A model generated the notes under the pieces. The model worked only from the letters and a program-made list of their open reading frames with translations, did not search any database and was not told the DNA's origin. From an uncultured Halobacteriovorax sp. (GTDB lineage: Bacteria; Bdellovibrionota; Bacteriovoracia; Bacteriovoracales; Bacteriovoracaceae): DNA of 64,000 bases. The stretch is taken from contig CAYGRY010000005.1 of NCBI GenBank assembly GCA_964352405.1, forward strand, positions 4,659 to 68,658, in the 5' to 3' direction. Below, piece by piece: positions 22,373 through 30,561 of this stretch (its first letter is position 1; the number at the start of each line of letters is the position of its first letter). Both the position numbers and the translations under genes were made by a program.

Positions 22373-23260
22373 ATGAGTGTAAAATACCATACTTTAGAGC
22401 CTGCCTATTTTCGTCTCGATGGAGGCGCGATGTATGGGATTATTCCAAAACCTTTGTGGAATAAAGTTCATGAAGCCAACGAATCTAATCGGGTTGATAT
22501 GGCGCTACGTGTTTTAGCGATTGAAACTAAGACGCGCTTCATTATTATTGATACTGGAATTGGCGATTATCACGGCGATAAGTTTGATAGTCGCTTTGAT
22601 GTACGCGGAGAAAAAAATCCTTTAGCCAAAGCTATCGAAGCGATGGGAAGAAAAGCATCCGAAGTGACTGATCTGGTGATCTCTCACCTGCACTTCGATC
22701 ATGTTGGTGGCATTGGCGTCAAGAACGAGCAAGACGAGCTCGAAGCCGTCTTTAAAAATGCAAATCTTCATCTTCACCGTGATCATTGGGCTTATGCTCA
22801 CACACCTACAGAGCGTGATAGCGGCTCTTTTCATGCGCATAACTTTGATCCTATTGTCGATTTTTACCGCACAGGAAATAAGATCGTTTGGCATGAGGGA
22901 GAAAGCGGAACACTTTTAACTTATGATGATGGACAAGAACTTAACTTCAAATGTTCACACGGGCATACACCTTTTTTAATGCACCCGTATGACAATAAAT
23001 TTATTTACCTGGCTGATTTGATTCCTACTTCAAATCACGTTCATATCCCTTGGGTTATGGGTTACGACATTTCTCCAGGTGTTACGACCAAAGATAAGCG
23101 TCAATTTTTAGATTTTATTATCGAGAAAGATCTCACCATTATTTATGAGCACGATCCTAAATATTGGGGTTCTAAGGTTGTCACGGATATAAAAACTGGC
23201 TTCGCCGTAAACCAACCACAAGCAACCACTAAGTCTACGATTCAAAGACTTGAATTATAA
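22373..23260 (+). CDS. MBL-fold metallo-hydrolase
   Basis: ISHLHFDHVGG (HxHxDH) plus downstream His and Asp residues. Confidence 0.8.
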   Translation: MSVKYHTLEPAYFRLDGGAMYGIIPKPLWNKVHEANESNRVDMALRVLAIETKTRFIIIDTGIGDYHGDKFDSRFDVRGEKNPLAKAIEAMGRKASEVTDLVISHLHFDHVGGIGVKNEQDELEAVFKNANLHLHRDHWAYAHTPTERDSGSFHAHNFDPIVDFYRTGNKIVWHEGESGTLLTYDDGQELNFKCSHGHTPFLMHPYDNKFIYLADLIPTSNHVHIPWVMGYDISPGVTTKDKRQFLDFIIEKDLTIIYEHDPKYWGSKVVTDIKTGFAVNQPQATTKSTIQRLEL

Positions 23261-24795
23261 TTGGTTTTAAGTTCTTCAATATCTTTTTTAAGACTAGTTA
23301 GTCGCTGATCAATTTTTAATTTTAGAGGCTCATAAAGTTCTTTAAAGCGTGCTTTCATTTTTGTTTTATCTGCTTTTCTATACTGTTTGATCGCTTTTGA
23401 TTCAGCTGATAATAAGCTTGCCACTTCTCCAAGTTGTTTAGCACTCTCTTCTATCTCACGATATAGCCTTGAAAGCATCGGGCTTTGCTCTTCAAGCTTA
23501 GTCGCCTGATCCATTGAATCTAGAATTAAAGATTGAAGAACCGGTGCAATGTCTTTGGCGTATCCTTGATCATATCTTTTAAAAGCTCGCCAAGTAACAG
23601 CGACATCAAGACGTTGGTGCCATAATTCATCAAGCTTACTGGCCATCTGAGAAAGTGTTTCATATTTTTCAAGTCGATACTGCAACGGCTTTGAAAGTGA
23701 GTCCCAAATCTTTTCTCTAAACTCTTGAAGATCACCGTTAAACTTATTGGCCGAACCTTCATAGAAACTTAATCGTCCTTGAAAGACATAACCACGAGAA
23801 TTAAATTGAACCCAGTCCATTGACTTAAACCATGGGTATGCTGACAGTATTGATGCCAGTCTTGCAGTCGTTCCCTTCGGTTTAACAGCAAGCTCATAAG
23901 TATACTCACCGCGAATCCAGTTCGTAGTTTGAACAAATTCAAATCGCTTAAACGGCACGAGTCCTTGAACCAGCTCCCCTTGAGACATAATTTCGACGGT
24001 GTCTGTTGATAAGATACGTCCAGGTATACTAGCGAGTTTTAAAAAGGCTTCACCTTCTAAGACTCCTGGAACTGCGGCCCAAATGACGTTTGAGTCTTTT
24101 GTCATGCGAACAATATGAGCAGATTTATGATCAATAATGACTTGATTAAATTGCTCGATATCGGCAGCCTCAAGACCAATCAAATCATAAGTTTGCAATC
24201 TGAATTGAGTAAACCAAACAACAGTAGCAAGAAGTGCAAATCCAGCAGCGATACCAGCACCAATTTTAAGCCATGGTCTTGATGTATCATTATCTTCAAT
24301 TATTGAAGATTCAAAATTTATATTGGGGGACGTCTTATCTTCATCAGTATTTATATCATGTTGGTGTTGACGCGGAAGATCTGGTACCTGGGCTTGATGA
24401 GAGGTCTCATCTAGGGACGACTCTAACTGTGAATCGTGGATGGCAACATGATCAATGGCCATTGAAACTTCGTCAGGCAGTGGCGGCAACTCAATATCTA
24501 CATCACTTGCGCTACGCAAAAGAAGATTGTGATCTTGGTCTGTTTCAATTGTTTCTGGAGATGATATTGGAGGCTTTTCTTCTATCTCAGCTTGTTCTTT
24601 GAAAATTAGATCTTTAAAAATTGTTTGATCAGCAAATGGAAGCCACGTTCCACCACCCTCTTTCCACACCAAATCTTTATGACCAATTACCCCAAGCGCG
24701 AAAAGATTAACCATCTCATCGGTTTGGTAAGGTCCACGGTGTTGATCACCTTTAAAAATGAACCACTGTCCATCATGATCTGAATGCTGTTTCAT
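23242..24795 (-). CDS. GYF_2 (DUF4339)-domain single-pass membrane protein
   Basis: N-terminus DGQWFIFKGDQHRGPYQTDEMVNLFALGVIGHKDLVWKEGGGTWLPF, acidic linker, TM segment IGAGIAAGFALLATVVWF, large C-terminal domain; start taken at the ATG at 24795. Confidence 0.65.
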   Translation of the reverse strand: MKQHSDHDGQWFIFKGDQHRGPYQTDEMVNLFALGVIGHKDLVWKEGGGTWLPFADQTIFKDLIFKEQAEIEEKPPISSPETIETDQDHNLLLRSASDVDIELPPLPDEVSMAIDHVAIHDSQLESSLDETSHQAQVPDLPRQHQHDINTDEDKTSPNINFESSIIEDNDTSRPWLKIGAGIAAGFALLATVVWFTQFRLQTYDLIGLEAADIEQFNQVIIDHKSAHIVRMTKDSNVIWAAVPGVLEGEAFLKLASIPGRILSTDTVEIMSQGELVQGLVPFKRFEFVQTTNWIRGEYTYELAVKPKGTTARLASILSAYPWFKSMDWVQFNSRGYVFQGRLSFYEGSANKFNGDLQEFREKIWDSLSKPLQYRLEKYETLSQMASKLDELWHQRLDVAVTWRAFKRYDQGYAKDIAPVLQSLILDSMDQATKLEEQSPMLSRLYREIEESAKQLGEVASLLSAESKAIKQYRKADKTKMKARFKELYEPLKLKIDQRLTSLKKDIEELKTNYNSSL

Positions 24796-24819
24796 AATAA
24801 CTATGTTATCCTGCCATGC

Positions 24820-25737
24820 ATGAAACCCCAAGATAAAAGTCACAAAGAGATTCAAAAGATTTTAAGCCGTCGTGGTGAAGATCAAATCAAATCGTTCATA
24901 AGTGATGATCAATGTGAAAAGATTATTCTCACAGCTGCCAACGATATAGGAGTAATTCGCAATGGTGGTCGGCGTGGAGCGGCTTTTGGCCCAAGCTGTA
25001 TCATCAATGCTTTTAAGAAATTTGCCTCACATTCAAAAGATAATAAAAAAATTCAAATCGTGGAAGTCGCTGGCGGTGAATTAGACTTCAATCAAATGCA
25101 ATCACTAGAAATTAAGAATATTAAAAGTTCTCTCGATCTCTTTAAAAGAACCCACATATGTCACCTTGGTGGAGGTCATGACCATATTTATCCATTAGTC
25201 ATGGCCATGGCACAACATTTCGACAAGAAAATACATATCATCAATATTGATGCTCATCTCGATACTCGTCTCGATGATTTTTTTCATTCAGGCACTCCAT
25301 TTAGACAACTCAAAAATAATTTAAAAAATAATCTTCGAGTGACTCAATTAGGCATTCAAGAAATTTCCAATGTTGAATCAAACTGGAATTCAATTGAAAT
25401 GAATGTTCACCTTCTTAGTAAACTCGAAGAAGAACTTGATTATTTTAATAATCTCGATGCTAATCTGGTTGATAAAATATTAGATATAAAGAACGAAGAG
25501 CTCACCGTTTTTAGTCTCGATCTTGATGCCATCAAAGGTTATGAGTTCAGTGCAGTAAGTGCAGTCAATCCACTTGGACTGCCACTAAACTTCATTCATA
25601 GGCTCTTAAGTCGTTATCTTTCGAAAGTTGATATCAAACTCGTAGGTCTCTATGAGTACAATCCAATGTTTGACGACCTTGCTGCTAAAGATGCAAAGGT
25701 TTGCGCCGAGCTTGTTAAGCAATCACTTCAAGTTTAA
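24820..25737 (+). CDS. arginase-family hydrolase (formimidoylglutamase/agmatinase-like)
   Basis: GGGHDHIYP, INIDAHLDTR and SLDLDA Mn-binding motifs of the ureohydrolase family; start could be 24784 or 24820. Confidence 0.75.
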   Translation: MKPQDKSHKEIQKILSRRGEDQIKSFISDDQCEKIILTAANDIGVIRNGGRRGAAFGPSCIINAFKKFASHSKDNKKIQIVEVAGGELDFNQMQSLEIKNIKSSLDLFKRTHICHLGGGHDHIYPLVMAMAQHFDKKIHIINIDAHLDTRLDDFFHSGTPFRQLKNNLKNNLRVTQLGIQEISNVESNWNSIEMNVHLLSKLEEELDYFNNLDANLVDKILDIKNEELTVFSLDLDAIKGYEFSAVSAVNPLGLPLNFIHRLLSRYLSKVDIKLVGLYEYNPMFDDLAAKDAKVCAELVKQSLQV

Positions 25738-26003: not shown

Positions 26004-26246
26004 CTAACCTCGGCCAGCTAAAAACTGAGAGAGTCTTTGAACTGCAGTTTGAAGTGCGTCATCAGCCTGCTCTAGTTTGTAGAGCGTGTCTACATGATGC
26101 CAAATCTTTCGAGACTCTTTTTGCACAATATCAATTTCGACGACGAAGCCATCTGAGTGTAAATTAAGCGTAATCCTACCAAGACGATGTTGGTCGCTAT
26201 CGATATTAACAAAAAAGTCTTGTGGGTATTCTGTTTTACTATTCAT
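26004..26246 (-). CDS. 80-aa hypothetical protein (intact copy of a duplicated small gene)
   Basis: Uninterrupted ORF; a degraded paralogue at 26983-27118 shows the sequence was under selection as coding. Confidence 0.55.
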   Translation of the reverse strand: MNSKTEYPQDFFVNIDSDQHRLGRITLNLHSDGFVVEIDIVQKESRKIWHHVDTLYKLEQADDALQTAVQRLSQFLAGRG

Positions 26247-26264
26247 TTTTTAAAGGATTAACAA

Positions 26265-26819
26265 ATGCGCTACTTACTGACTATGCTTTTTATTCTTCCG
26301 CTCACAACTCACGCCTGCCTAGAGCTTCAAAAGGATTCCGTTAAGGTTCAATGGACTGGCTATAAAACCGCTGCAAAAGTTGGAGTGAGTGGCGTTTTCA
26401 CTGATATAAAGCATGAAGGAAAGACAAAGGCTGAAACAATTGACGATTTGATTCATGGAGCTAGCCTAACCATAAATCTTTTAACTCCAAGCAGTGGAAA
26501 TACTGCAAGGGATGCAAACTTAAAGGATAAATTTTTTAAACTCATAGGAAAAGAAGCCTCTGCAAAAGTAAATAAAATAGAAAAAGGTTTGGCTCGTGTA
26601 AGTTTAAAGATGGGAAAAAAATCAGTAGATGTTTCTTTAGTTCCAGATCTTAAAGATGATGTTCTAACTTTGTCAGGTACACTCGATATTTTTGACTTTG
26701 CTATTGAAAGTGCTTTTGCCTCCATTTCAAAAACCTGTCGTGCTCTTCATGAAGGCAAAACTTGGAATGACGTTGCAATAAAAGTTATAGCGAACGTCAC
26801 CCCTTGTAAGGCTCAGTGA
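26265..26819 (+). CDS. YceI-like periplasmic protein
   Basis: Signal peptide; VQWTGYKTAAKVGVSGVF and SSGNTARDANLKDKFF resemble YceI-family motifs. Confidence 0.7.
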   Translation: MRYLLTMLFILPLTTHACLELQKDSVKVQWTGYKTAAKVGVSGVFTDIKHEGKTKAETIDDLIHGASLTINLLTPSSGNTARDANLKDKFFKLIGKEASAKVNKIEKGLARVSLKMGKKSVDVSLVPDLKDDVLTLSGTLDIFDFAIESAFASISKTCRALHEGKTWNDVAIKVIANVTPCKAQ

Positions 26820-26953
26820 TCTAAACCAGATTTTCTGATATGTACTTTTGGCTTAGCCTCACTCTCAAAAACGTTTGAGACTAAGACTTCAGCAGTTGTT
26901 ACAATAAAAAGACCTGATGAAATATGTCCAACTGCTGCTGCGATATCGCTCAT
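26813..26953 (-). pseudogene. internally deleted (in-frame) remnant of a flavin-reductase-like gene, paralogous to 29991-30455
   Basis: The 46-codon ORF MSDIAAAVGHISSGLFIVTT+AEVLVSNVFESEAKPKVHIRKSGLDH matches the first 20 aa and last 26 aa of the 154-aa protein MSDKAQAVGHIPSGLFIVTT...AEVIASDVNETEAKPKVHIRKSGLDY. Confidence 0.75.
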
Positions 26954-26982
26954 AATTTTTTATCTTTGGAAAAATCTCAGTC

Positions 26983-27118
26983 TTACCAAATTTTACGCGA
27001 CTCTTTTTGAACAATATCGATTTCGACTTTGAAAGTTTCACCGTGAAGATTTAGCGTAATTCTTCTGGTTTTCAATATTAACAAAATAGTCTTGAGGATA
27101 TTCAATTCGATGGCTAAT
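26983..27118 (-). pseudogene. frameshifted, start-less remnant of the 80-aa gene (paralogue of 26004-26246)
   Basis: One frame gives EYPQDYFVNIENQ and another gives ITLNLHGETFKVEIDIVQKESRKIW*, against intact EYPQDFFVNIDSDQHRLGRITLNLHSDGFVVEIDIVQKESRKIWHH; the codon aligned to the ATG is ATT. Confidence 0.75.
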
Positions 27119-27162
27119 GATTAACAAATACACATCATGATGACTACGAATATCAATCAAAA

Positions 27163-29829
27163 CTATTGCAGACCACAATTTTTAAGATCTGATAGCTGCA
27201 AGTGAATATTTGAAGAAGCTGCTTCGCCGTAAAGAACATTATCATGATAATCAAAATATGATACTTCATGCATTCTTCTAAAACTCTCAGCAAAATGCTT
27301 ACCAGCATCATATGTATCATCGAACATAGTTTTTGGTTTATAAGGATTTTTATACTCTTGATAAGGAGTTGATTCATAATCCAGTAACTGTTCTAGTTCA
27401 TACTTACTTTTTAATGCTTTTTCACCAACTTCCGCACAAGCACTGAACAAGTTCTTCTTAGTATCAATCTGAGCACAGTCATTATTATAGCCGGCAGCAG
27501 CTAATGAATTACCAATTCCATTTCCAATACCAAAAGTTAAGACACCACAAAGTGTATTTTTACCATTCAGTTCAACATCAAACACATTCACATACTCAGT
27601 ATAGGTTTTTGATAAATTCGGAGTAAATGGAGGTGCCCCCCCCGGCAAGCTTGCACCAACAGAAGCACCAATCGTAAAGCCATGACATTTACCTAGAAAC
27701 CCACCACCTAATCTTCCATTTTCATCTTTTAACATCTGATCCATAAAGACTTTTAATCTGTCATATTGTTCTTCATCGCCTCCGACGGTCTGAACATACT
27801 CGTCAAAAAGTTCATTTAATGGTTGGTGAAAAAATTTGGTCGTTTCACCATCACTTAGAGGAGAATCGTTAATGAGAATACTGTCTAGATTATTTTCTTT
27901 TACTTCTGGATTAAGTTCTTCAATTTGCTTGTTAACTTGTGACTGAAACAACAAAGAACCAATACCTTTAATTCCACGAATCACTTCTTGTTCTGATATA
28001 TATGAAGTTAATGCAACTGCACCTAAAGCATATTTTCTATCTTTGCTTGTTCTATTAATTGCAAACTGAAAAAACTTTTCCATTTGCTCTTTGAATTTTA
28101 CTGAATTTTGACCATTGCCACCAAACTTAGCTTCTCTAAGAGCAATGTTGCCACGGCCTTGATCAATACCAATACCAATGGTAGCACTTAAGGCAGTATC
28201 AACTCCAAGTACTGACCCGCCAAAACCAACCCCAGTATTTTGAAATCCCCCCTCATAATCACCGGCTTGACGACAATCTCCGAAGGTTTGAATTTTTCCT
28301 ACATTTAATGATGCCGAAGCACCAACTCCAAGTCCATAACTCGCGCCCCCGCCTGCGGCACAATAACAGTTCAACTTTAAACTACTCTCATCTATTGCCG
28401 CTTGAATTGGATCTTGTTGTGACAAACACTCAATTCCACCTTCAATCTGTAGAAATTTTCCAGCACCAGCAGTAAGAGCTCCACTAATACCAATGCCGTG
28501 TCTTGAACCACTATGATCACAGCTCTCTGGCGATAATGCTCCCTCTTTACCAGCGGCTAATACTTTCGAGTAACTACTTGGGTCCATGAGTAATTCTGAT
28601 TGCCCTCGCTCACTTCTTCTTTCTTTTAAAACCTCGAGCATTTGAAGTCTTTCTCGATCACGAATATTCTGAATTTCTCTTAATAGAGCATCTCTTGGCA
28701 TGCCATTTGTTAGAGCATTAATGTATTCTTGCTTATTTTCTTCCCAAATCTTTGGATCAACTTCACCTGCGATTGCCTCAATTGAGTCTTTATATTTTTT
28801 ATCACAAAGAGATTTTTGTTCTTTTAAAAGATTTTTATCAGCTTCATCAAAAAATCTTAATGCTTCAAGATGCATGCCTCTTAATGAGTTTGAACATGAA
28901 GATGGATCACTAAGTGGACTGGCCTTGAAGGCTTCAGAAACTGTCTGGTGACCAGTCATTATATTAGCTTTTGCTTGATTATAAATTTGAGATGAAGTTG
29001 GTGCATTACCTCTATCTAAACCTGCTGATTCTTTCCTAAATAATTGCTCTGTCTGAGTCCGTGTCAATCCCAAATTTGGTTGATTAGCTACCAGTTTTGG
29101 TTGTTCAACTTCAACTGTATTTTGTTTCATTTGCGCTCTAAGCTGACTTTGATAAGGTGTTTTATCATTAGCTAATTCATTGTTTAAATGACTACACCAT
29201 CTAGGAATAAACTTGGCCGTTTCAGCTTGAAAATCTGTTTCAGCTCCAAGATTTGCAAATATATTACTCTCATCATTTACTTTTTTACTTTCGGCCTCAT
29301 CTGCAATCGCAATATATGCACCAATGTTATTAACAGTGCTTCTTGCGTTGTTACAGTAATTCTTATTGGAGTAGTAATTGTGAGAATTAGAGCAATGTTT
29401 TTTGTACCAATTCGTAATTTTATCAATAACTGCTTGTTTCGCATAAAAGCGACAAAAACTTGAAGAGCCGCTTTCTTTCATTGCTTGTTCTAATTGGTAC
29501 AGGCCAGTATTATTGTACCAAGAAGAAATATTTCTTTTTACTGGTACCATGACGTTAGGACTGGCTTTATATTCAACATCTCTATTTTCATAACCTTTGC
29601 CACCAGAAGTGTGAATATATTCAAACTTAGTACAATTTTCTTTTCCTTGATTACTACCAATACCAAGAGCACAGTGACTTAGATCATTCTGAAGGTGACT
29701 CTCTTTAAAAAAATTTGGATCAGCTTTACTAATTTCCTCATCACAATTTTTTGCACGCGCAATTTCATAGATATTACCGCTTGCAATATTTGCACTTAGA
29801 GAAAATATGAAAAGAAAGATGATTCTCAT
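27163..29829 (-). CDS. large secreted Cys-rich protein with Gly/Ala/Ser-rich segments, function unknown
   Basis: 888 aa with signal peptide MRIIFLFIFSLSANIASG; about 19 Cys; segments such as GIGISGALTAGAG, AAGGGASYGLGVGASAS, GVGFGGSVLGVDTALSATIGIGIDQG, FGIGNGIGNSLAAAG. Confidence 0.8.
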   Translation of the reverse strand: MRIIFLFIFSLSANIASGNIYEIARAKNCDEEISKADPNFFKESHLQNDLSHCALGIGSNQGKENCTKFEYIHTSGGKGYENRDVEYKASPNVMVPVKRNISSWYNNTGLYQLEQAMKESGSSSFCRFYAKQAVIDKITNWYKKHCSNSHNYYSNKNYCNNARSTVNNIGAYIAIADEAESKKVNDESNIFANLGAETDFQAETAKFIPRWCSHLNNELANDKTPYQSQLRAQMKQNTVEVEQPKLVANQPNLGLTRTQTEQLFRKESAGLDRGNAPTSSQIYNQAKANIMTGHQTVSEAFKASPLSDPSSCSNSLRGMHLEALRFFDEADKNLLKEQKSLCDKKYKDSIEAIAGEVDPKIWEENKQEYINALTNGMPRDALLREIQNIRDRERLQMLEVLKERRSERGQSELLMDPSSYSKVLAAGKEGALSPESCDHSGSRHGIGISGALTAGAGKFLQIEGGIECLSQQDPIQAAIDESSLKLNCYCAAGGGASYGLGVGASASLNVGKIQTFGDCRQAGDYEGGFQNTGVGFGGSVLGVDTALSATIGIGIDQGRGNIALREAKFGGNGQNSVKFKEQMEKFFQFAINRTSKDRKYALGAVALTSYISEQEVIRGIKGIGSLLFQSQVNKQIEELNPEVKENNLDSILINDSPLSDGETTKFFHQPLNELFDEYVQTVGGDEEQYDRLKVFMDQMLKDENGRLGGGFLGKCHGFTIGASVGASLPGGAPPFTPNLSKTYTEYVNVFDVELNGKNTLCGVLTFGIGNGIGNSLAAAGYNNDCAQIDTKKNLFSACAEVGEKALKSKYELEQLLDYESTPYQEYKNPYKPKTMFDDTYDAGKHFAESFRRMHEVSYFDYHDNVLYGEAASSNIHLQLSDLKNCGLQ

Positions 29830-29838
29830 AGACTATTC

Positions 29839-29866
29839 TTATCGGCTAATTTTCTTATAGACTAAA
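29839..29866 (-). promoter_or_regulatory. possible sigma-28-type promoter of the 888-aa gene
   Basis: Minus strand reads TTTAGTCT-N12-GCCGATAA; the -10 ends 9 nt before the ATG at 29829 and there is no Shine-Dalgarno sequence. Confidence 0.35.
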
Positions 29867-29990
29867 GAATACTTAATGAGTCTCAAATCATATAATTTCC
29901 CAGACGTCACCACCTAAGCTATTGAAATCACATAAATTAATAAACTCAATATTTTGGCATTAAGAATAATGCATTCATCAGACAATTATT

Positions 29991-30455
29991 CTAATAATCA
30001 AGACCTGATTTGCGGATATGAACCTTAGGCTTTGCTTCTGTCTCATTCACATCTGAAGCAATTACTTCAGCGAAGACTACTTCATGATCTCCTGGATGAC
30101 TTTTACTGATCATTTTACAAGTAATTGTTGATTTCGCACCTTTGATGACAAGTCCACCTTGGGCATTTATGACGTGATCGATTTCTCCAAAAGGACTAAC
30201 TTCATAACTTTTCCAGAAATGGCGCATATATTGAGTTTCATGCTCACCTACAATATTAATCGCAAACGGTTTACCGGCCATAATATGTTCATAGCCAGGG
30301 CGACCTGCGCGAATTCCAAGTGCAACCACAAGTGGTTTGAAAGAAACTTGCTGAACCCAACTGGCTAGATAGCCATCCTTCTTTTCGCCGTCGGTGGTGG
30401 TTACAATAAAAAGTCCTGATGGAATATGACCAACAGCCTGAGCTTTATCTGACAT
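29991..30455 (-). CDS. flavin reductase-like (FMN-binding split-barrel) domain protein
   Basis: GLFIVTT...GYLASWVQQVSFKPLVVALGI pattern of the Flavin_Reduct family; AAGGAG Shine-Dalgarno sequence. Confidence 0.8.
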   Translation of the reverse strand: MSDKAQAVGHIPSGLFIVTTTDGEKKDGYLASWVQQVSFKPLVVALGIRAGRPGYEHIMAGKPFAINIVGEHETQYMRHFWKSYEVSPFGEIDHVINAQGGLVIKGAKSTITCKMISKSHPGDHEVVFAEVIASDVNETEAKPKVHIRKSGLDY

Positions 30456-30561
30456 CTTTTACTCCTTATTTTAATATTTAAGTTTTTCCAACTACTGGTA
30501 GAATCAAAATGATAACTTTCATTTTGCTATTGTGAAGACTTCACCAAATATTGAAAAGGTT

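What the first reader, a model, noticed from the sequence alone, without database searches (positions are those of the whole stretch)
26004..30455. Two tandem units of flavin-reductase / cargo / 80-aa gene with reciprocal decay
Seen on the minus strand, reading from high to low coordinates: intact flavin-reductase-like gene (30455-29991), the 888-aa secreted protein gene, a frameshifted copy of the 80-aa gene (27118-26983), an internally deleted flavin-reductase copy (26953-26813), a YceI-like gene on the opposite strand, then the intact 80-aa gene (26246-26004). Homologous stretches are roughly 70 percent identical at nucleotide level by eye. Inference: an ancestral two-gene pair was duplicated with different inserts between the partners. 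Each unit then lost the complementary member, so the surviving flavin reductase and 80-aa gene now sit 3.7 kb apart. The two flanking genes may be functionally linked, and the slot between them may be a cargo insertion site.
Basis: partly seen in the sequence, partly recalled or inferred. Interest (0 to 1): 0.68.

Follow-up and report, generated by a model that had tools for sequence, protein, structure and literature searches.

The report
Foreign gene block spliced into flavin-reductase gene
The two "tandem units" are real, but the second unit is not a home-made duplicate: a block from a divergent sister lineage of this predatory bacterium, carrying a rare secreted-protein gene, recombined into the resident flavin-reductase gene and left chimeric genes and dead fragments. 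This is an instructive but ordinary kind of recombination scar.

Summary
Fragments of the 80-aa gene (S80) and of the flavin reductase (FR) lie at the stated coordinates and match the intact genes significantly. Eight to ten related Halobacteriovorax-like loci show a single-copy ancestral order: sdhCAB / h229 / MBL hydrolase / FR / YceI (opposite strand) / S80. No other of 82 fetched loci has a second copy.

In the window, the middle block is closest to a different lineage (contigs L075 and L076). This block is the FR 3' end, the 888-aa gene, psiS80 and the psiFR 5' end. The flanks match the nearest relative, L002.

The "intact" FR is a chimera of resident nt 1-270 and foreign nt 276-465 (permutation p = 1e-4). 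psiFR is the reciprocal chimera (Fisher p = 1e-8). psiS80 ends at nt 147 at a microhomology junction, so it was truncated when the block formed rather than decaying from a full-length gene.

The foreign lineage already carries a same-strand secreted-protein gene between FR and S80 in place of YceI (a trypsin-like protease in L076). An FR-S80 functional pairing is not supported. The best model is a single reciprocal crossover with a circular or tandemly duplicated foreign segment, followed by deletions. Interest is modest.

The parts
30478..30522 (-). psiMBL. The start of the MBL-fold hydrolase gene is fused in frame to its last codons (14-aa mini-ORF MKVIILILPVVGKT). About 935 nt were deleted between two copies of ATCATTTTG.
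   Evidence: One search aligns the window with L002 7900-8000 and 8880-8985. One search shows L002 7980-8913 absent from the window. The MBL gene is present in L002, L004, L036, L039, L041, L072 and L080.
30186..30455 (-). FR1 nt 1-270, the resident (L002-type) part of the intact flavin-reductase gene.
   Evidence: Nt 1-260 are 86.2% identical to L002 and 76.5% to L075. Informative sites are 41 resident to 12 donor.
29991..30180 (-). FR1 nt 276-465, the foreign (L075-type) part of the intact flavin-reductase gene. The crossover lies between nt 270 and 276 (window 30186-30180).
   Evidence: Nt 261-465 are 83.4% identical to L075 and 73.7% to L002. Informative sites are 9 resident to 33 donor. 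Max-chi2 is 29.4 with permutation p = 1e-4, and Fisher p = 5e-8. At protein level, residues 90-154 differ from P0039 at one position.
29978..29993 (-). FR stop codon plus a short spacer (TAGAATAATTGTCTGA) shared with the foreign lineage. This is the left edge of the cargo.
   Evidence: One search aligns it with L075, L076 and L077. Similarity ends about 15 nt after the stop.
27163..29829 (-). Cargo: the 888-aa predicted secreted protein, with a hydrophobic N-terminus (signal-peptide-like by eye), no Pfam domain and GC3 of 0.22.
   Evidence: There is no homologue among 5.8e9 clustered proteins. An exhaustive HMMER search of 1.8e9 representatives gives only 6 distant hits of 27-35% identity, each covering part of residues 297-841.
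27116..27148 (+). psiYceI. About the first 20 nt of a second YceI gene (ATG mutated to ATA) plus the YceI-S80 intergenic spacer. This is the right edge of the cargo.
   Evidence: alignment and D7 (74% over 31 nt, in register with 26253-26283). The same stump, with the same CGTAGTCA variant, precedes S80 in L076.
26986..27118 (-). psiS80. A foreign-type copy of S80 nt 1-147 with no start codon and a 14-nt deletion. It ends at junction J1.
   Evidence: Identity is 81% to L044, 79% to L036, 73% to the window's own S80 and 71% to L002.
26980..26994 (-). J1, the junction of S80 nt 147 to position -37 upstream of FR (AAAATTTGG|TAAGAC). Both parents carry a similar motif: AAGATTTGG in S80, and AAATTTTGG (L041) or GAGTTTGG (L075) upstream of FR.
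26895..26990 (-). Foreign-type FR upstream region (37 nt, RBS degraded from GGAG to GATA) plus psiFR nt 1-59.
   Evidence: The coding part is 89.8% identical to L075, 71.2% to L002 and 76.3% to FR1. Informative sites are 12 donor to 1 resident. The peptide MSDIAAAVGHISSGLFIVTT differs from P0039 at one residue.
26813..26894 (-). psiFR nt 384-465, the resident FR 3' end in its original position abutting YceI. J2 (nt 59|384, ACAACTG|CTGAAGTC) is at 26885-26899.
   Evidence: It is 91.5% identical to L002 and L072 and 63.4% to L075. Informative sites are 0 donor to 23 resident. It is collinear with L002 through YceI, S80 and the arginase-family gene in one 1.9-kb alignment.
26265..26819 (+). Resident YceI-like gene.
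   Evidence: It is 81.8% identical at nucleotide level to L002. The Pfam YceI match is weak.
26004..26246 (-). Resident intact 80-aa gene (S80), a member of a conserved Bacteriovoracaceae small-protein family.
   Evidence: There are 31 cluster representatives and 35 genome plus 28 metagenome loci. It is 87.6% identical at nucleotide level to L002. The AF2 model has mean pLDDT 88.6.

Best explanation
The window is from a Halobacteriovorax-like member of the Bacteriovoracaceae. Its resident locus was sdhCAB / h229 / MBL hydrolase / FR / YceI (opposite strand) / S80 / arginase-family gene.

A segment of about 3.5 kb from a divergent sister lineage ('D type', sampled by metagenome contigs L075 and L076) entered this locus. 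In that lineage the YceI gene between FR and S80 had already been replaced by a same-strand secreted-protein gene.

The segment runs from 37 nt upstream of FR_D, through FR_D, the 888-aa gene and a YceI 5' stump, to nt 147 of S80_D. Its two ends are joined to each other at a short microhomology (J1). The molecule was therefore either a circle or one repeat of a tandem duplication.

One reciprocal homologous crossover with the resident FR at nt 270-276 inserted it. This produced FR1 (resident 5' part plus foreign 3' part, full length and presumably functional), then the 888 gene, then the truncated S80_D, then FR2 (foreign 5' part plus resident 3' part), then the untouched resident YceI and S80.

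FR2 later lost nt 60-383 (J2) and its ribosome-binding site. psiS80 lost its start codon and 14 nt. The upstream MBL gene was deleted between 9-nt repeats.

Shown directly:
- The single-copy ancestral order.
- The foreign affinity of the middle block.
- The two reciprocal chimeras and the breakpoint.
- The junction sequences.
- The cargo variability in the D lineage.

Inferred:
- The circular or tandem form of the donor DNA.
- That the 888 gene arrived with the block rather than later.
- The order of the deletions.
- The route of DNA entry.
For: 1. Eight to ten related loci keep a single FR-YceI-S80 unit (L002/L042, L004, L036-38, L039, L041, L072, L074, L079). None of 82 fetched loci has a second FR or S80 copy.
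2. Both flanks are collinear with L002, including psiFR nt 384-465 (91.5%).
3. FR1 switches from L002-like to L075-like between nt 270 and 276. Informative sites are 41:12 on the left and 9:33 on the right (permutation p = 1e-4, Fisher p = 5e-8). psiFR shows the reverse pattern, 12:1 then 0:23 (Fisher p = 1e-8). The same trend appeared earlier with L041 and L039 as donor proxies.
4. Protein P0039 (contig L075) differs from FR1 at only one position over residues 90-154, and from psiFR at one residue over 1-20.
5. I concatenated the middle-block pieces. They group with L036+L041 in 83% of NJ bootstraps. They share 8 of the 9 decidable diagnostic sites (11 in all) with that group. They share 0 of the 6 decidable sites (7 in all) that unite the resident copy with L002.
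6. psiS80 is least like the window's own S80 and L002 (71-73%) and most like L044 and L036 (79-81%).
7. L076, of the D lineage, has FR_D, then a 367-aa trypsin-like secreted protein, then a YceI 5' stump, then S80_D. Its cargo edges match the window's.
8. J1 lies in an 8-of-9-nt microhomology, and the MBL deletion lies between 9-nt repeats.
Against: - The true donor is unsampled. L075 is only 83-90% identical to the foreign pieces, and no sequence anywhere carries the 888 gene next to a D-type FR. Arrival of 888 with the block is therefore an inference from shared cargo edges.
- The pieces are short (59-205 nt), and two of them are pseudogenes on long branches.
- A circular intermediate is not observed.
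- The same end product could come from importing a pre-formed tandem duplication.
- Natural transformation or any other DNA-uptake route is not documented here for this organism.
- I could not check read support for the junctions.
Confidence: 0.65

Rival explanations
1. An FR/80-aa unit duplicated in tandem within this lineage, different genes were later inserted between the partners, and each unit then lost the complementary member by random decay.
For: The head-to-tail order FR-x-S80'-FR'-x-S80 and the microhomology at J1 are what a tandem duplication would give. Pseudogenes diverge fast, so about 70% identity alone does not exclude it.
Against: - The middle-block pieces carry none of the 6 decidable substitutions shared by the resident copy and L002, and 8 of the 9 decidable sites diagnostic of the L036/L041 group.
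- FR1 is under selection, yet its 3' 190 nt are 83% identical to L075 and 74% to L002. Its 5' 260 nt show the reverse.
- psiFR nt 1-59 is 90% identical to L075 and 76% to FR1.
- No relative has the duplication.
- psiS80 is cut exactly at the block's end junction (J1) rather than at an internal lesion. It was never complete in this genome.
Confidence: 0.08
2. The origin is the same foreign lineage but the path differs. The tandem duplication (J1), and perhaps the FR2 deletion (J2), arose in the donor lineage. A linear fragment spanning FR 3' end, 888, S80' and FR 5' end was then imported. Import was either by two homologous crossovers in FR or by homology-facilitated illegitimate recombination (HFIR). 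In the HFIR version the homologous anchor is in FR and the illegitimate join is at J2.
For: Both sides of J1 are D type, so J1 formed between D-type sequences. J2 joins D-type nt 59 to resident nt 384 with only 1-2 nt of microhomology, as illegitimate joins do. HFIR is documented in naturally transformable bacteria and has been proposed for displaced-gene arrays (PMC3240628 abstract; PMC5361080).
Against: It needs an unobserved duplicated donor. The data cannot separate it from the circle model because the end products are identical.
Confidence: 0.2
3. The structure is an assembly artefact, a contig that mixes reads from two co-occurring strains (resident type and D type).
For: The closest relatives are all metagenome-assembled. 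The switch inside FR1 lies in a conserved stretch where an assembler could jump between strains.
Against: - J1 and J2 have at most 9 nt and at most 2 nt of shared sequence, far below assembler k-mers.
- psiS80 carries a 9-nt and a 14-nt deletion and is at most 81% identical to any known S80.
- psiFR has a degraded RBS.
- These are marks of evolutionary decay and would not arise from mixing two intact strains.
- No D-type relative holds the 888 gene.
Confidence: 0.04
4. The remnants are independent functional small genes, for example a 46-aa peptide from 26813-26953.
For: The psiFR deletion and the psiMBL deletion are both in frame and keep the start and stop codons.
Against: - The GGAG ribosome-binding site is degraded to GATA.
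- The 46-aa product lacks the whole Flavin_Reduct core.
- There is no such mini-gene in any of 82 related loci.
- psiS80 has no start codon and a frameshift.
- Two in-frame deletions have a chance probability of about 1 in 9.
Confidence: 0.03

Closest known systems
Campbell-type (single reciprocal crossover) integration of a circular DNA carrying a homologous segment, as with suicide plasmids or circles popped out of tandem duplications (general knowledge, not tested experimentally here)
   Same: The product has two reciprocal hybrid copies of the homologous gene flanking the inserted DNA. That is exactly the FR1/psiFR pattern. The inserted DNA is a circular permutation of a contiguous donor segment, closed at J1.
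   Different: No vector, replication or integrase functions are present. The circle would be a bare chromosomal fragment from a related lineage. One hybrid copy was later gutted by a deletion.
Homology-facilitated illegitimate recombination (HFIR). It is described for Acinetobacter, Pseudomonas stutzeri and Streptococcus pneumoniae, and for E. coli conjugation (PMC3240628). It has also been proposed for displaced effector/immunity and Rhs 'orphan' arrays (PMC5361080).
   Same: Foreign DNA is anchored by one homologous stretch (FR) and carries non-homologous cargo. There are illegitimate joins with 1-9 nt of microhomology. Displaced gene stumps are left behind downstream, like orphan 3' fragments in Rhs/T6SS arrays.
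   Different: Here the foreign block includes a 5' copy of the anchor gene as well, so a plain linear one-anchor event does not suffice. No toxin/immunity logic is evident.
Strain-variable gene slots flanked by conserved core genes, such as the regions of gene-content difference between Halobacteriovorax marinus strains attributed to horizontal transfer (PMC5760749)
   Same: Conserved flanks (FR on one side, S80 on the other) hold different, mostly secreted, proteins in different lineages: YceI, the 888-aa protein, and a trypsin-like protease. A PKD giant lies downstream of FR in L082.
   Different: The slot is much smaller, a single gene. No mobile-element genes are present. The window shows an addition beside the resident allele rather than a replacement of it.
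Tandem duplication with reciprocal (complementary) gene loss
   Same: The layout is head-to-tail, with complementary survivors.
   Different: The copies are not each other's closest relatives. The survivors are explained by where the crossover and the block ends fell, not by random complementary decay.

Membership tests
Flavin_Reduct (Pfam PF01613) for the intact gene 29991-30455 | Significant full-length match to the family HMM above the gathering score | tested here: met
   E 1.3e-21 and 77.7 bits against a cutoff of 27, covering residues 9-147 of 154. There are 446 homologues with E <= 1e-40, several named flavin reductase/RutF-like by their sources.
YceI-like (Pfam PF04264) for 26265-26819 | Match above the Pfam gathering score | tested here: inconclusive
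   18.3 bits against a cutoff of 23.7, E 0.003. Orthologues are flagged YceI 'weak', and one (L041) is unmarked.
In-situ tandem duplication with reciprocal decay | The two copies are each other's closest relatives, or share the lineage-specific substitutions of the host genome | tested here: not met
   The middle block shares 0 of the 6 decidable window+L002 sites (7 in all) and 8 of the 9 decidable L036/L041-group sites (11 in all). NJ bootstrap support for grouping with L036+L041 is 83%. psiFR_N is 90% identical to L075 and 76% to FR1.
In-situ tandem duplication with reciprocal decay | Both members of each unit were once complete in this genome and were inactivated independently | tested here: not met
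   psiS80 homology ends at nt 147, exactly at the junction with the FR upstream region (J1), so it was never complete here. FR1 is intact because the crossover was homologous and in register.
Single-crossover (Campbell-type) integration of foreign homologous DNA | Two reciprocal hybrid copies of the homologous gene flank the insert, switching parentage at the same position | tested here: met
   FR1 is resident then donor, switching at nt 270-276. psiFR is donor (nt 1-59) then resident (nt 384-465). The switch point itself lies inside psiFR's deleted segment, so the position can only be bracketed to nt 60-383.
Single-crossover (Campbell-type) integration of foreign homologous DNA | The inserted DNA is a circular permutation of a contiguous donor segment | tested here: met
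   The order is FR_D 3' end, cargo, S80_D nt 1-147, J1, position -37 upstream, FR_D 5' end. The contiguous donor order FR_D, cargo, S80_D is seen in L076.
Single-crossover (Campbell-type) integration of foreign homologous DNA | Existence of a circular or tandem donor molecule and a DNA-uptake route | not testable with these tools
   There are no reads and no experiments.
Homology-facilitated illegitimate recombination | One homologous anchor plus an illegitimate join at short microhomology | tested here: inconclusive
   The anchor in FR is met. J1 (8 of 9 nt) and J2 (1-2 nt) are illegitimate joins. J1 joins two donor sequences, so a single linear HFIR event is not sufficient.
Mobile element or genomic island (IS, integron, integrative element) | Transposase or integrase gene, terminal inverted or direct repeats, or a tRNA/att target | tested here: not met
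   The window has no tRNA and no Rfam hit. There are no flanking repeats beyond the homologous gene pieces. The only long ORFs in the block are FR and the 888-aa gene, which has no Pfam match.
Conserved FR/80-aa functional gene pair | Co-occurrence and adjacency across the family's range | tested here: not met
   FR lies within -3.5 to +1.8 kb of S80 in 2 of 35 genome loci, plus close relatives of those two. In the other loci S80 follows YceI (16 loci) or a Zn_protease+RimK pair (15-17 loci).

The most novel reading that the evidence does not exclude
The FR-to-S80 interval may be a dedicated, recombination-driven slot through which Halobacteriovorax lineages exchange secreted (possibly predation-related) protein genes. 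The conserved FR and S80 genes would act as homology arms. On this reading the window caught a swap that added the incoming allele (888) beside the resident one (YceI) instead of replacing it, which exposes the mechanism.
Probability: 0.3. Interest if true: 0.5.

Novelty: new member of a known kind. Interest (0 to 1): 0.33.

Why it matters
This is a clean natural example in which the path of a gene acquisition can be read base by base. It shows reciprocal chimeric genes, a breakpoint bracketed to about 7 nt, and microhomology junctions. The donor lineage is identified in metagenomes.

It shows how an almost family-less secreted-protein gene entered the core sdh-proximal region of a predatory bacterium without any mobile-element machinery. 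It also flags the FR|YceI|S80 interval as a small hotspot of variation in this clade.

It corrects a tempting but wrong "duplication and reciprocal decay" reading. It also removes the suggested functional link between the flavin reductase and the 80-aa protein. It does not reveal a new kind of system.

Tried and rejected
- A global MAFFT alignment of whole units misaligned the psi pieces. I replaced it with in-register, ungapped coding alignments.
- First breakpoint estimates used L041 or L039 as donor proxy and placed the switch at nt 402-416. This made J2 look coincident with the crossover and suggested a one-step HFIR insertion. The better donor proxy L075 moved the switch to nt 270-276, so I dropped that idea.
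- Ungapped comparison of the FR upstream regions is unreliable because of 1-2-nt indels. Only the by-eye, gap-aware comparison is used for the 37 nt upstream of psiFR.
- I looked for a YceI 3' remnant between the FR1 stop and the 888 start (29990-29830) and found none.
- The 888 protein was compared with L001's 730-aa protein, L076's protease and every fetched locus. No similarity was found.
- A fold search with the S80 model gave only weak PUR/PC4/Whirly-like hits (E >= 0.14, TM <= 0.47). I treat this as a lead only.
- The promoter/terminator scan found no more sites than in shuffled sequence.
Full report
**1. Observation**

On the minus strand the window reads, from high to low coordinates:
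- the h229 gene (31251-30562);
- an intact 154-aa Flavin_Reduct gene, FR1 (30455-29991; Pfam E 1.3e-21);
- an 888-aa ORF with a hydrophobic, signal-peptide-like N-terminus (judged by eye) (29829-27163);
- a fragment of the 80-aa gene, psiS80 (27118-26986);
- a 46-aa ORF made of the first 20 and last 26 residues of FR, psiFR (26953-26813);
- a YceI-like gene on the plus strand (26265-26819);
- the intact 80-aa gene, S80 (26246-26004).

Self-blastn gives exactly three significant internal matches. These are S80/psiS80 (70.5% over 132 nt, E 4e-13), FR/psiFR 5' (87.8% over 41 nt, E 9e-9) and FR/psiFR 3' (70.7% over 75 nt, E 2e-4). Everything else is at noise level.

**2. Ancestral state**

S80 is a real, conserved small-protein family restricted to Bacteriovoracaceae. 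It has 31 cluster representatives, 35 loci in species-representative genomes and 28 in metagenomes.

I mapped the window's genes onto these loci and used the gene calls of further contigs. All close relatives keep one copy of each gene in the order sdhBAC(-) / h229 / MBL-fold hydrolase / FR / YceI(-) / S80 / arginase-family(-) / GYF protein. This holds for L002/L042, L004, L036-38, L039, L041 and L072. L074 and L079 show the same order over the parts they cover.

FR's stop abuts or overlaps YceI's stop, just as psiFR does in the window. None of the 82 loci has a second FR or S80 copy. None has the 888 gene. The window aligns with its nearest relative L002 in one piece from psiFR nt 384 through YceI, S80 and the arginase gene (82%, 1.9 kb). 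It aligns in another piece through sdhC-h229 (92%). The resident unit is therefore psiFR(3')-YceI-S80, and the extra material is FR1(part)-888-psiS80-psiFR(5').

**3. The extra block is foreign**

Nearest neighbours differ piece by piece.
- FR1 nt 1-392 and psiFR nt 384-465 are closest to L002, L072 and L074. psiFR 3' is 90-92% identical to these three and only 64-67% to FR1's own 3' end.
- FR1's 3' end, psiFR's 5' end and psiS80 are closest to the more distant L041/L039/L036/L044 group.

I concatenated the three odd pieces and compared them with the orthologous resident pieces.
- The block groups with L036+L041 in 83% of NJ bootstraps.
- It carries 8 of the 9 decidable sites diagnostic for that group (11 sites in all).
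- It carries none of the 6 decidable sites shared by the resident copy and L002 (7 sites in all).

An in-situ duplication after the split from L002 is therefore excluded. An older duplication would require independent loss in every sampled relative.

**4. The donor lineage**

A protein search with FR1 returned P0039, which lies on a 613-nt contig (L075). Its sequence differs from FR1 at only one position over residues 90-154. Its first 20 residues match psiFR with one difference. FR1's first 88 residues are of L002 type.

I counted informative nucleotide sites using L002 as the resident proxy and L075 as the donor proxy.
- FR1 has 41 resident to 12 donor sites before nt 270, and 9 resident to 33 donor sites after nt 276. 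Max chi-square is 29.4, permutation p = 1e-4 and Fisher p = 5e-8.
- psiFR has 12 donor to 1 resident sites in nt 1-59, and 0 donor to 23 resident sites in nt 384-465. Fisher p = 1e-8.

FR1 and psiFR are therefore reciprocal chimeras of a resident and a foreign FR. That is the signature of a single reciprocal crossover.

**5. The junctions**

J1 (26994-26980) joins S80 nt 147 (...AAAATTTGG) to position -37 upstream of FR. Relatives there read AAATTTTGG (L041) or GAGTTTGG (L075). Both sides of J1 are of foreign type. The foreign DNA is therefore a circular permutation of a contiguous donor stretch [-37 ... FR ... cargo ... S80 nt 147], closed at a microhomology.

J2 (26899-26885) joins psiFR nt 59 to nt 384, in frame, with 1-2 nt of overlap. 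It removes the crossover point, so it is most simply a later deletion in the second hybrid copy. That copy's Shine-Dalgarno sequence is also degraded, from GGAG to GATA.

psiS80 has additionally lost its ATG (9-nt deletion) and 14 internal nt.

Upstream, the MBL gene present in all close relatives was deleted between two ATCATTTTG repeats. This left a 14-codon in-frame stub at 30522-30478.

**6. The cargo**

Right after the 888 stop codon, about 30 nt reproduce the YceI start region and the YceI-S80 spacer, with the ATG mutated (27148-27116; D7). Unit 1 therefore once held a YceI gene too.

A second D-type contig, L076, reads: MBL 3' end, FR_D, a 367-aa trypsin-like secreted protein on the same strand, the same YceI stump (sharing the CGTAGTCA variant), then S80_D. 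The window and L075/L076/L077 share about 15 nt after the FR stop and then diverge. The cargo edges coincide, but the cargos (888 vs protease) are unrelated.

Another D-class FR (L082) is followed by a terminator, a 2393-aa PKD-repeat protein, two further secreted proteins and a HigBA-like pair. In close resident-type relatives, the DNA on the other side of YceI also varies. L001 has a 730-aa ORF and L070/71 an ABC-like gene instead of h229-MBL-FR.

The FR|YceI|S80 neighbourhood is thus a small hotspot of variation.

The 888-aa protein has no Pfam domain. It has no homologue in the 5.8-billion-protein index. An exhaustive search gave only six distant partial relatives of 27-35% identity. Its GC3 (0.22) is the lowest in the region.

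**7. No FR/S80 functional pair**

Within -3.5 to +1.8 kb of S80, FR is found in only 2 of 35 genome loci, both in the Halobacteriovorax-like subclade. In the remaining loci S80 is divergently adjacent to YceI (16 loci), or follows a Zn_protease (RimB-like) plus RimK pair on the same strand (15-17 loci).

An AlphaFold model of S80 is confident (mean pLDDT 88.6) and shows four strands followed by a helix. PDB fold matches are weak and point only loosely to PUR/PC4/Whirly-type nucleic-acid binders (E >= 0.14). I treat this as a lead, not a result.

**8. Mechanism and alternatives**

The simplest path is as follows. A 3.5-kb circle of D-type DNA, or one repeat of a D-type tandem duplication, recombined once with the resident FR at nt 270-276. 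The redundant hybrid FR2, psiS80 and MBL then decayed by deletions.

A variant cannot be excluded. In it, a pre-formed duplication is imported, or homology-facilitated illegitimate recombination uses J2 as the illegitimate join. HFIR and the "orphan" stumps it leaves are described in PMC3240628 and discussed for T6SS/Rhs arrays in PMC5361080.

An assembly chimera is unlikely. J1 and J2 share far fewer bases than any assembler k-mer, and the remnants carry decay marks absent from both parental types. I could not inspect reads, however.

There is no transposase, integrase, tRNA, Rfam element or terminal repeat.

**9. Verdict**

The feature is a recombination scar, with a chimeric functional FR, a captured near-orphan secreted-protein gene and four gene stumps. 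It sits in a locally variable interval of a Halobacteriovorax-like genome. It is a new, well-resolved instance of known processes, not a new kind of system. Horizontal acquisition in otherwise syntenic Halobacteriovorax genomes has been reported before (PMC5760749).

Noticed in passing
The MBL-fold hydrolase gene (about 335 aa in all close relatives) is reduced to a 14-codon in-frame stub by a deletion of about 935 nt between two ATCATTTTG repeats. Both internal deletions in this locus (psiMBL and psiFR) keep the start, stop and frame. That could preserve translational coupling to the next gene, or it could be chance (about 1 in 9).
   Followed up: partly
window 26004-26246; alignment A1; loci L009-L033: The 80-aa protein family has no Pfam domain and is restricted to Bacteriovoracaceae. 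Its confident AF2 model has four strands plus a C-terminal helix, with weak PUR/PC4/Whirly-like fold hits. In the Bacteriovorax clade it always follows a Zn_protease (RimB-like) plus RimK ATP-grasp pair on the same strand. This suggests a role unrelated to flavin reduction.
   Followed up: partly
window 27163-29829; proteins P0033-P0038: The 888-aa secreted protein belongs to a very rare family. Only six distant relatives were found among 1.8 billion representatives. They share a Gly/Cys-rich core with motifs such as CYCAGG..G, QTFG.C, DY.GGF and GGFLG.CH. P0033 and P0034 look like two halves of one orthologue.
   Followed up: no
L082 5499-14543 (Logan SRR14005102 contig): In another lineage the FR gene is followed by a 2393-aa PKD-repeat protein, two small secreted proteins and a HigA/HigB-like pair instead of YceI-S80. 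This is a larger insertion at the same boundary.
   Followed up: partly
L001 2585-9414; L070 4451-5657: Close relatives with S80 90-91% identical lack h229-MBL-FR upstream of YceI. L001 has a 1320-aa acetyl-CoA hydrolase/alpha-beta hydrolase fusion, a 182-aa ORF and a 730-aa ORF without Pfam domains. L070 has a 208-aa ORF and an ABC_tran-like 195-aa ORF. The YceI 3' boundary is rearranged repeatedly.
   Followed up: partly
L079 2776-4169; L078 189-2110: h229 and/or the MBL gene are absent between sdhC and FR in some lineages (L079: sdhC-FR; L078: sdhC-MBL-FR). The left side of FR is therefore variable too.
   Followed up: no
window 22373-23260 (plus strand) and orthologues in L039/L041/L079: The 295-aa Lactamase_B protein next to the GYF-domain gene carries a weak or faint precomputed hit to Anti-Pycsar_Apyc1 (PF23023) in its orthologues. 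This is probably just MBL-fold similarity.
   Followed up: no
window 23242-24855 (minus) and 24784-25737 (plus): The longest ORFs of the GYF-domain protein (TTG start) and the arginase-family protein overlap head-to-head by 72 nt. The true starts are probably further in.
   Followed up: no
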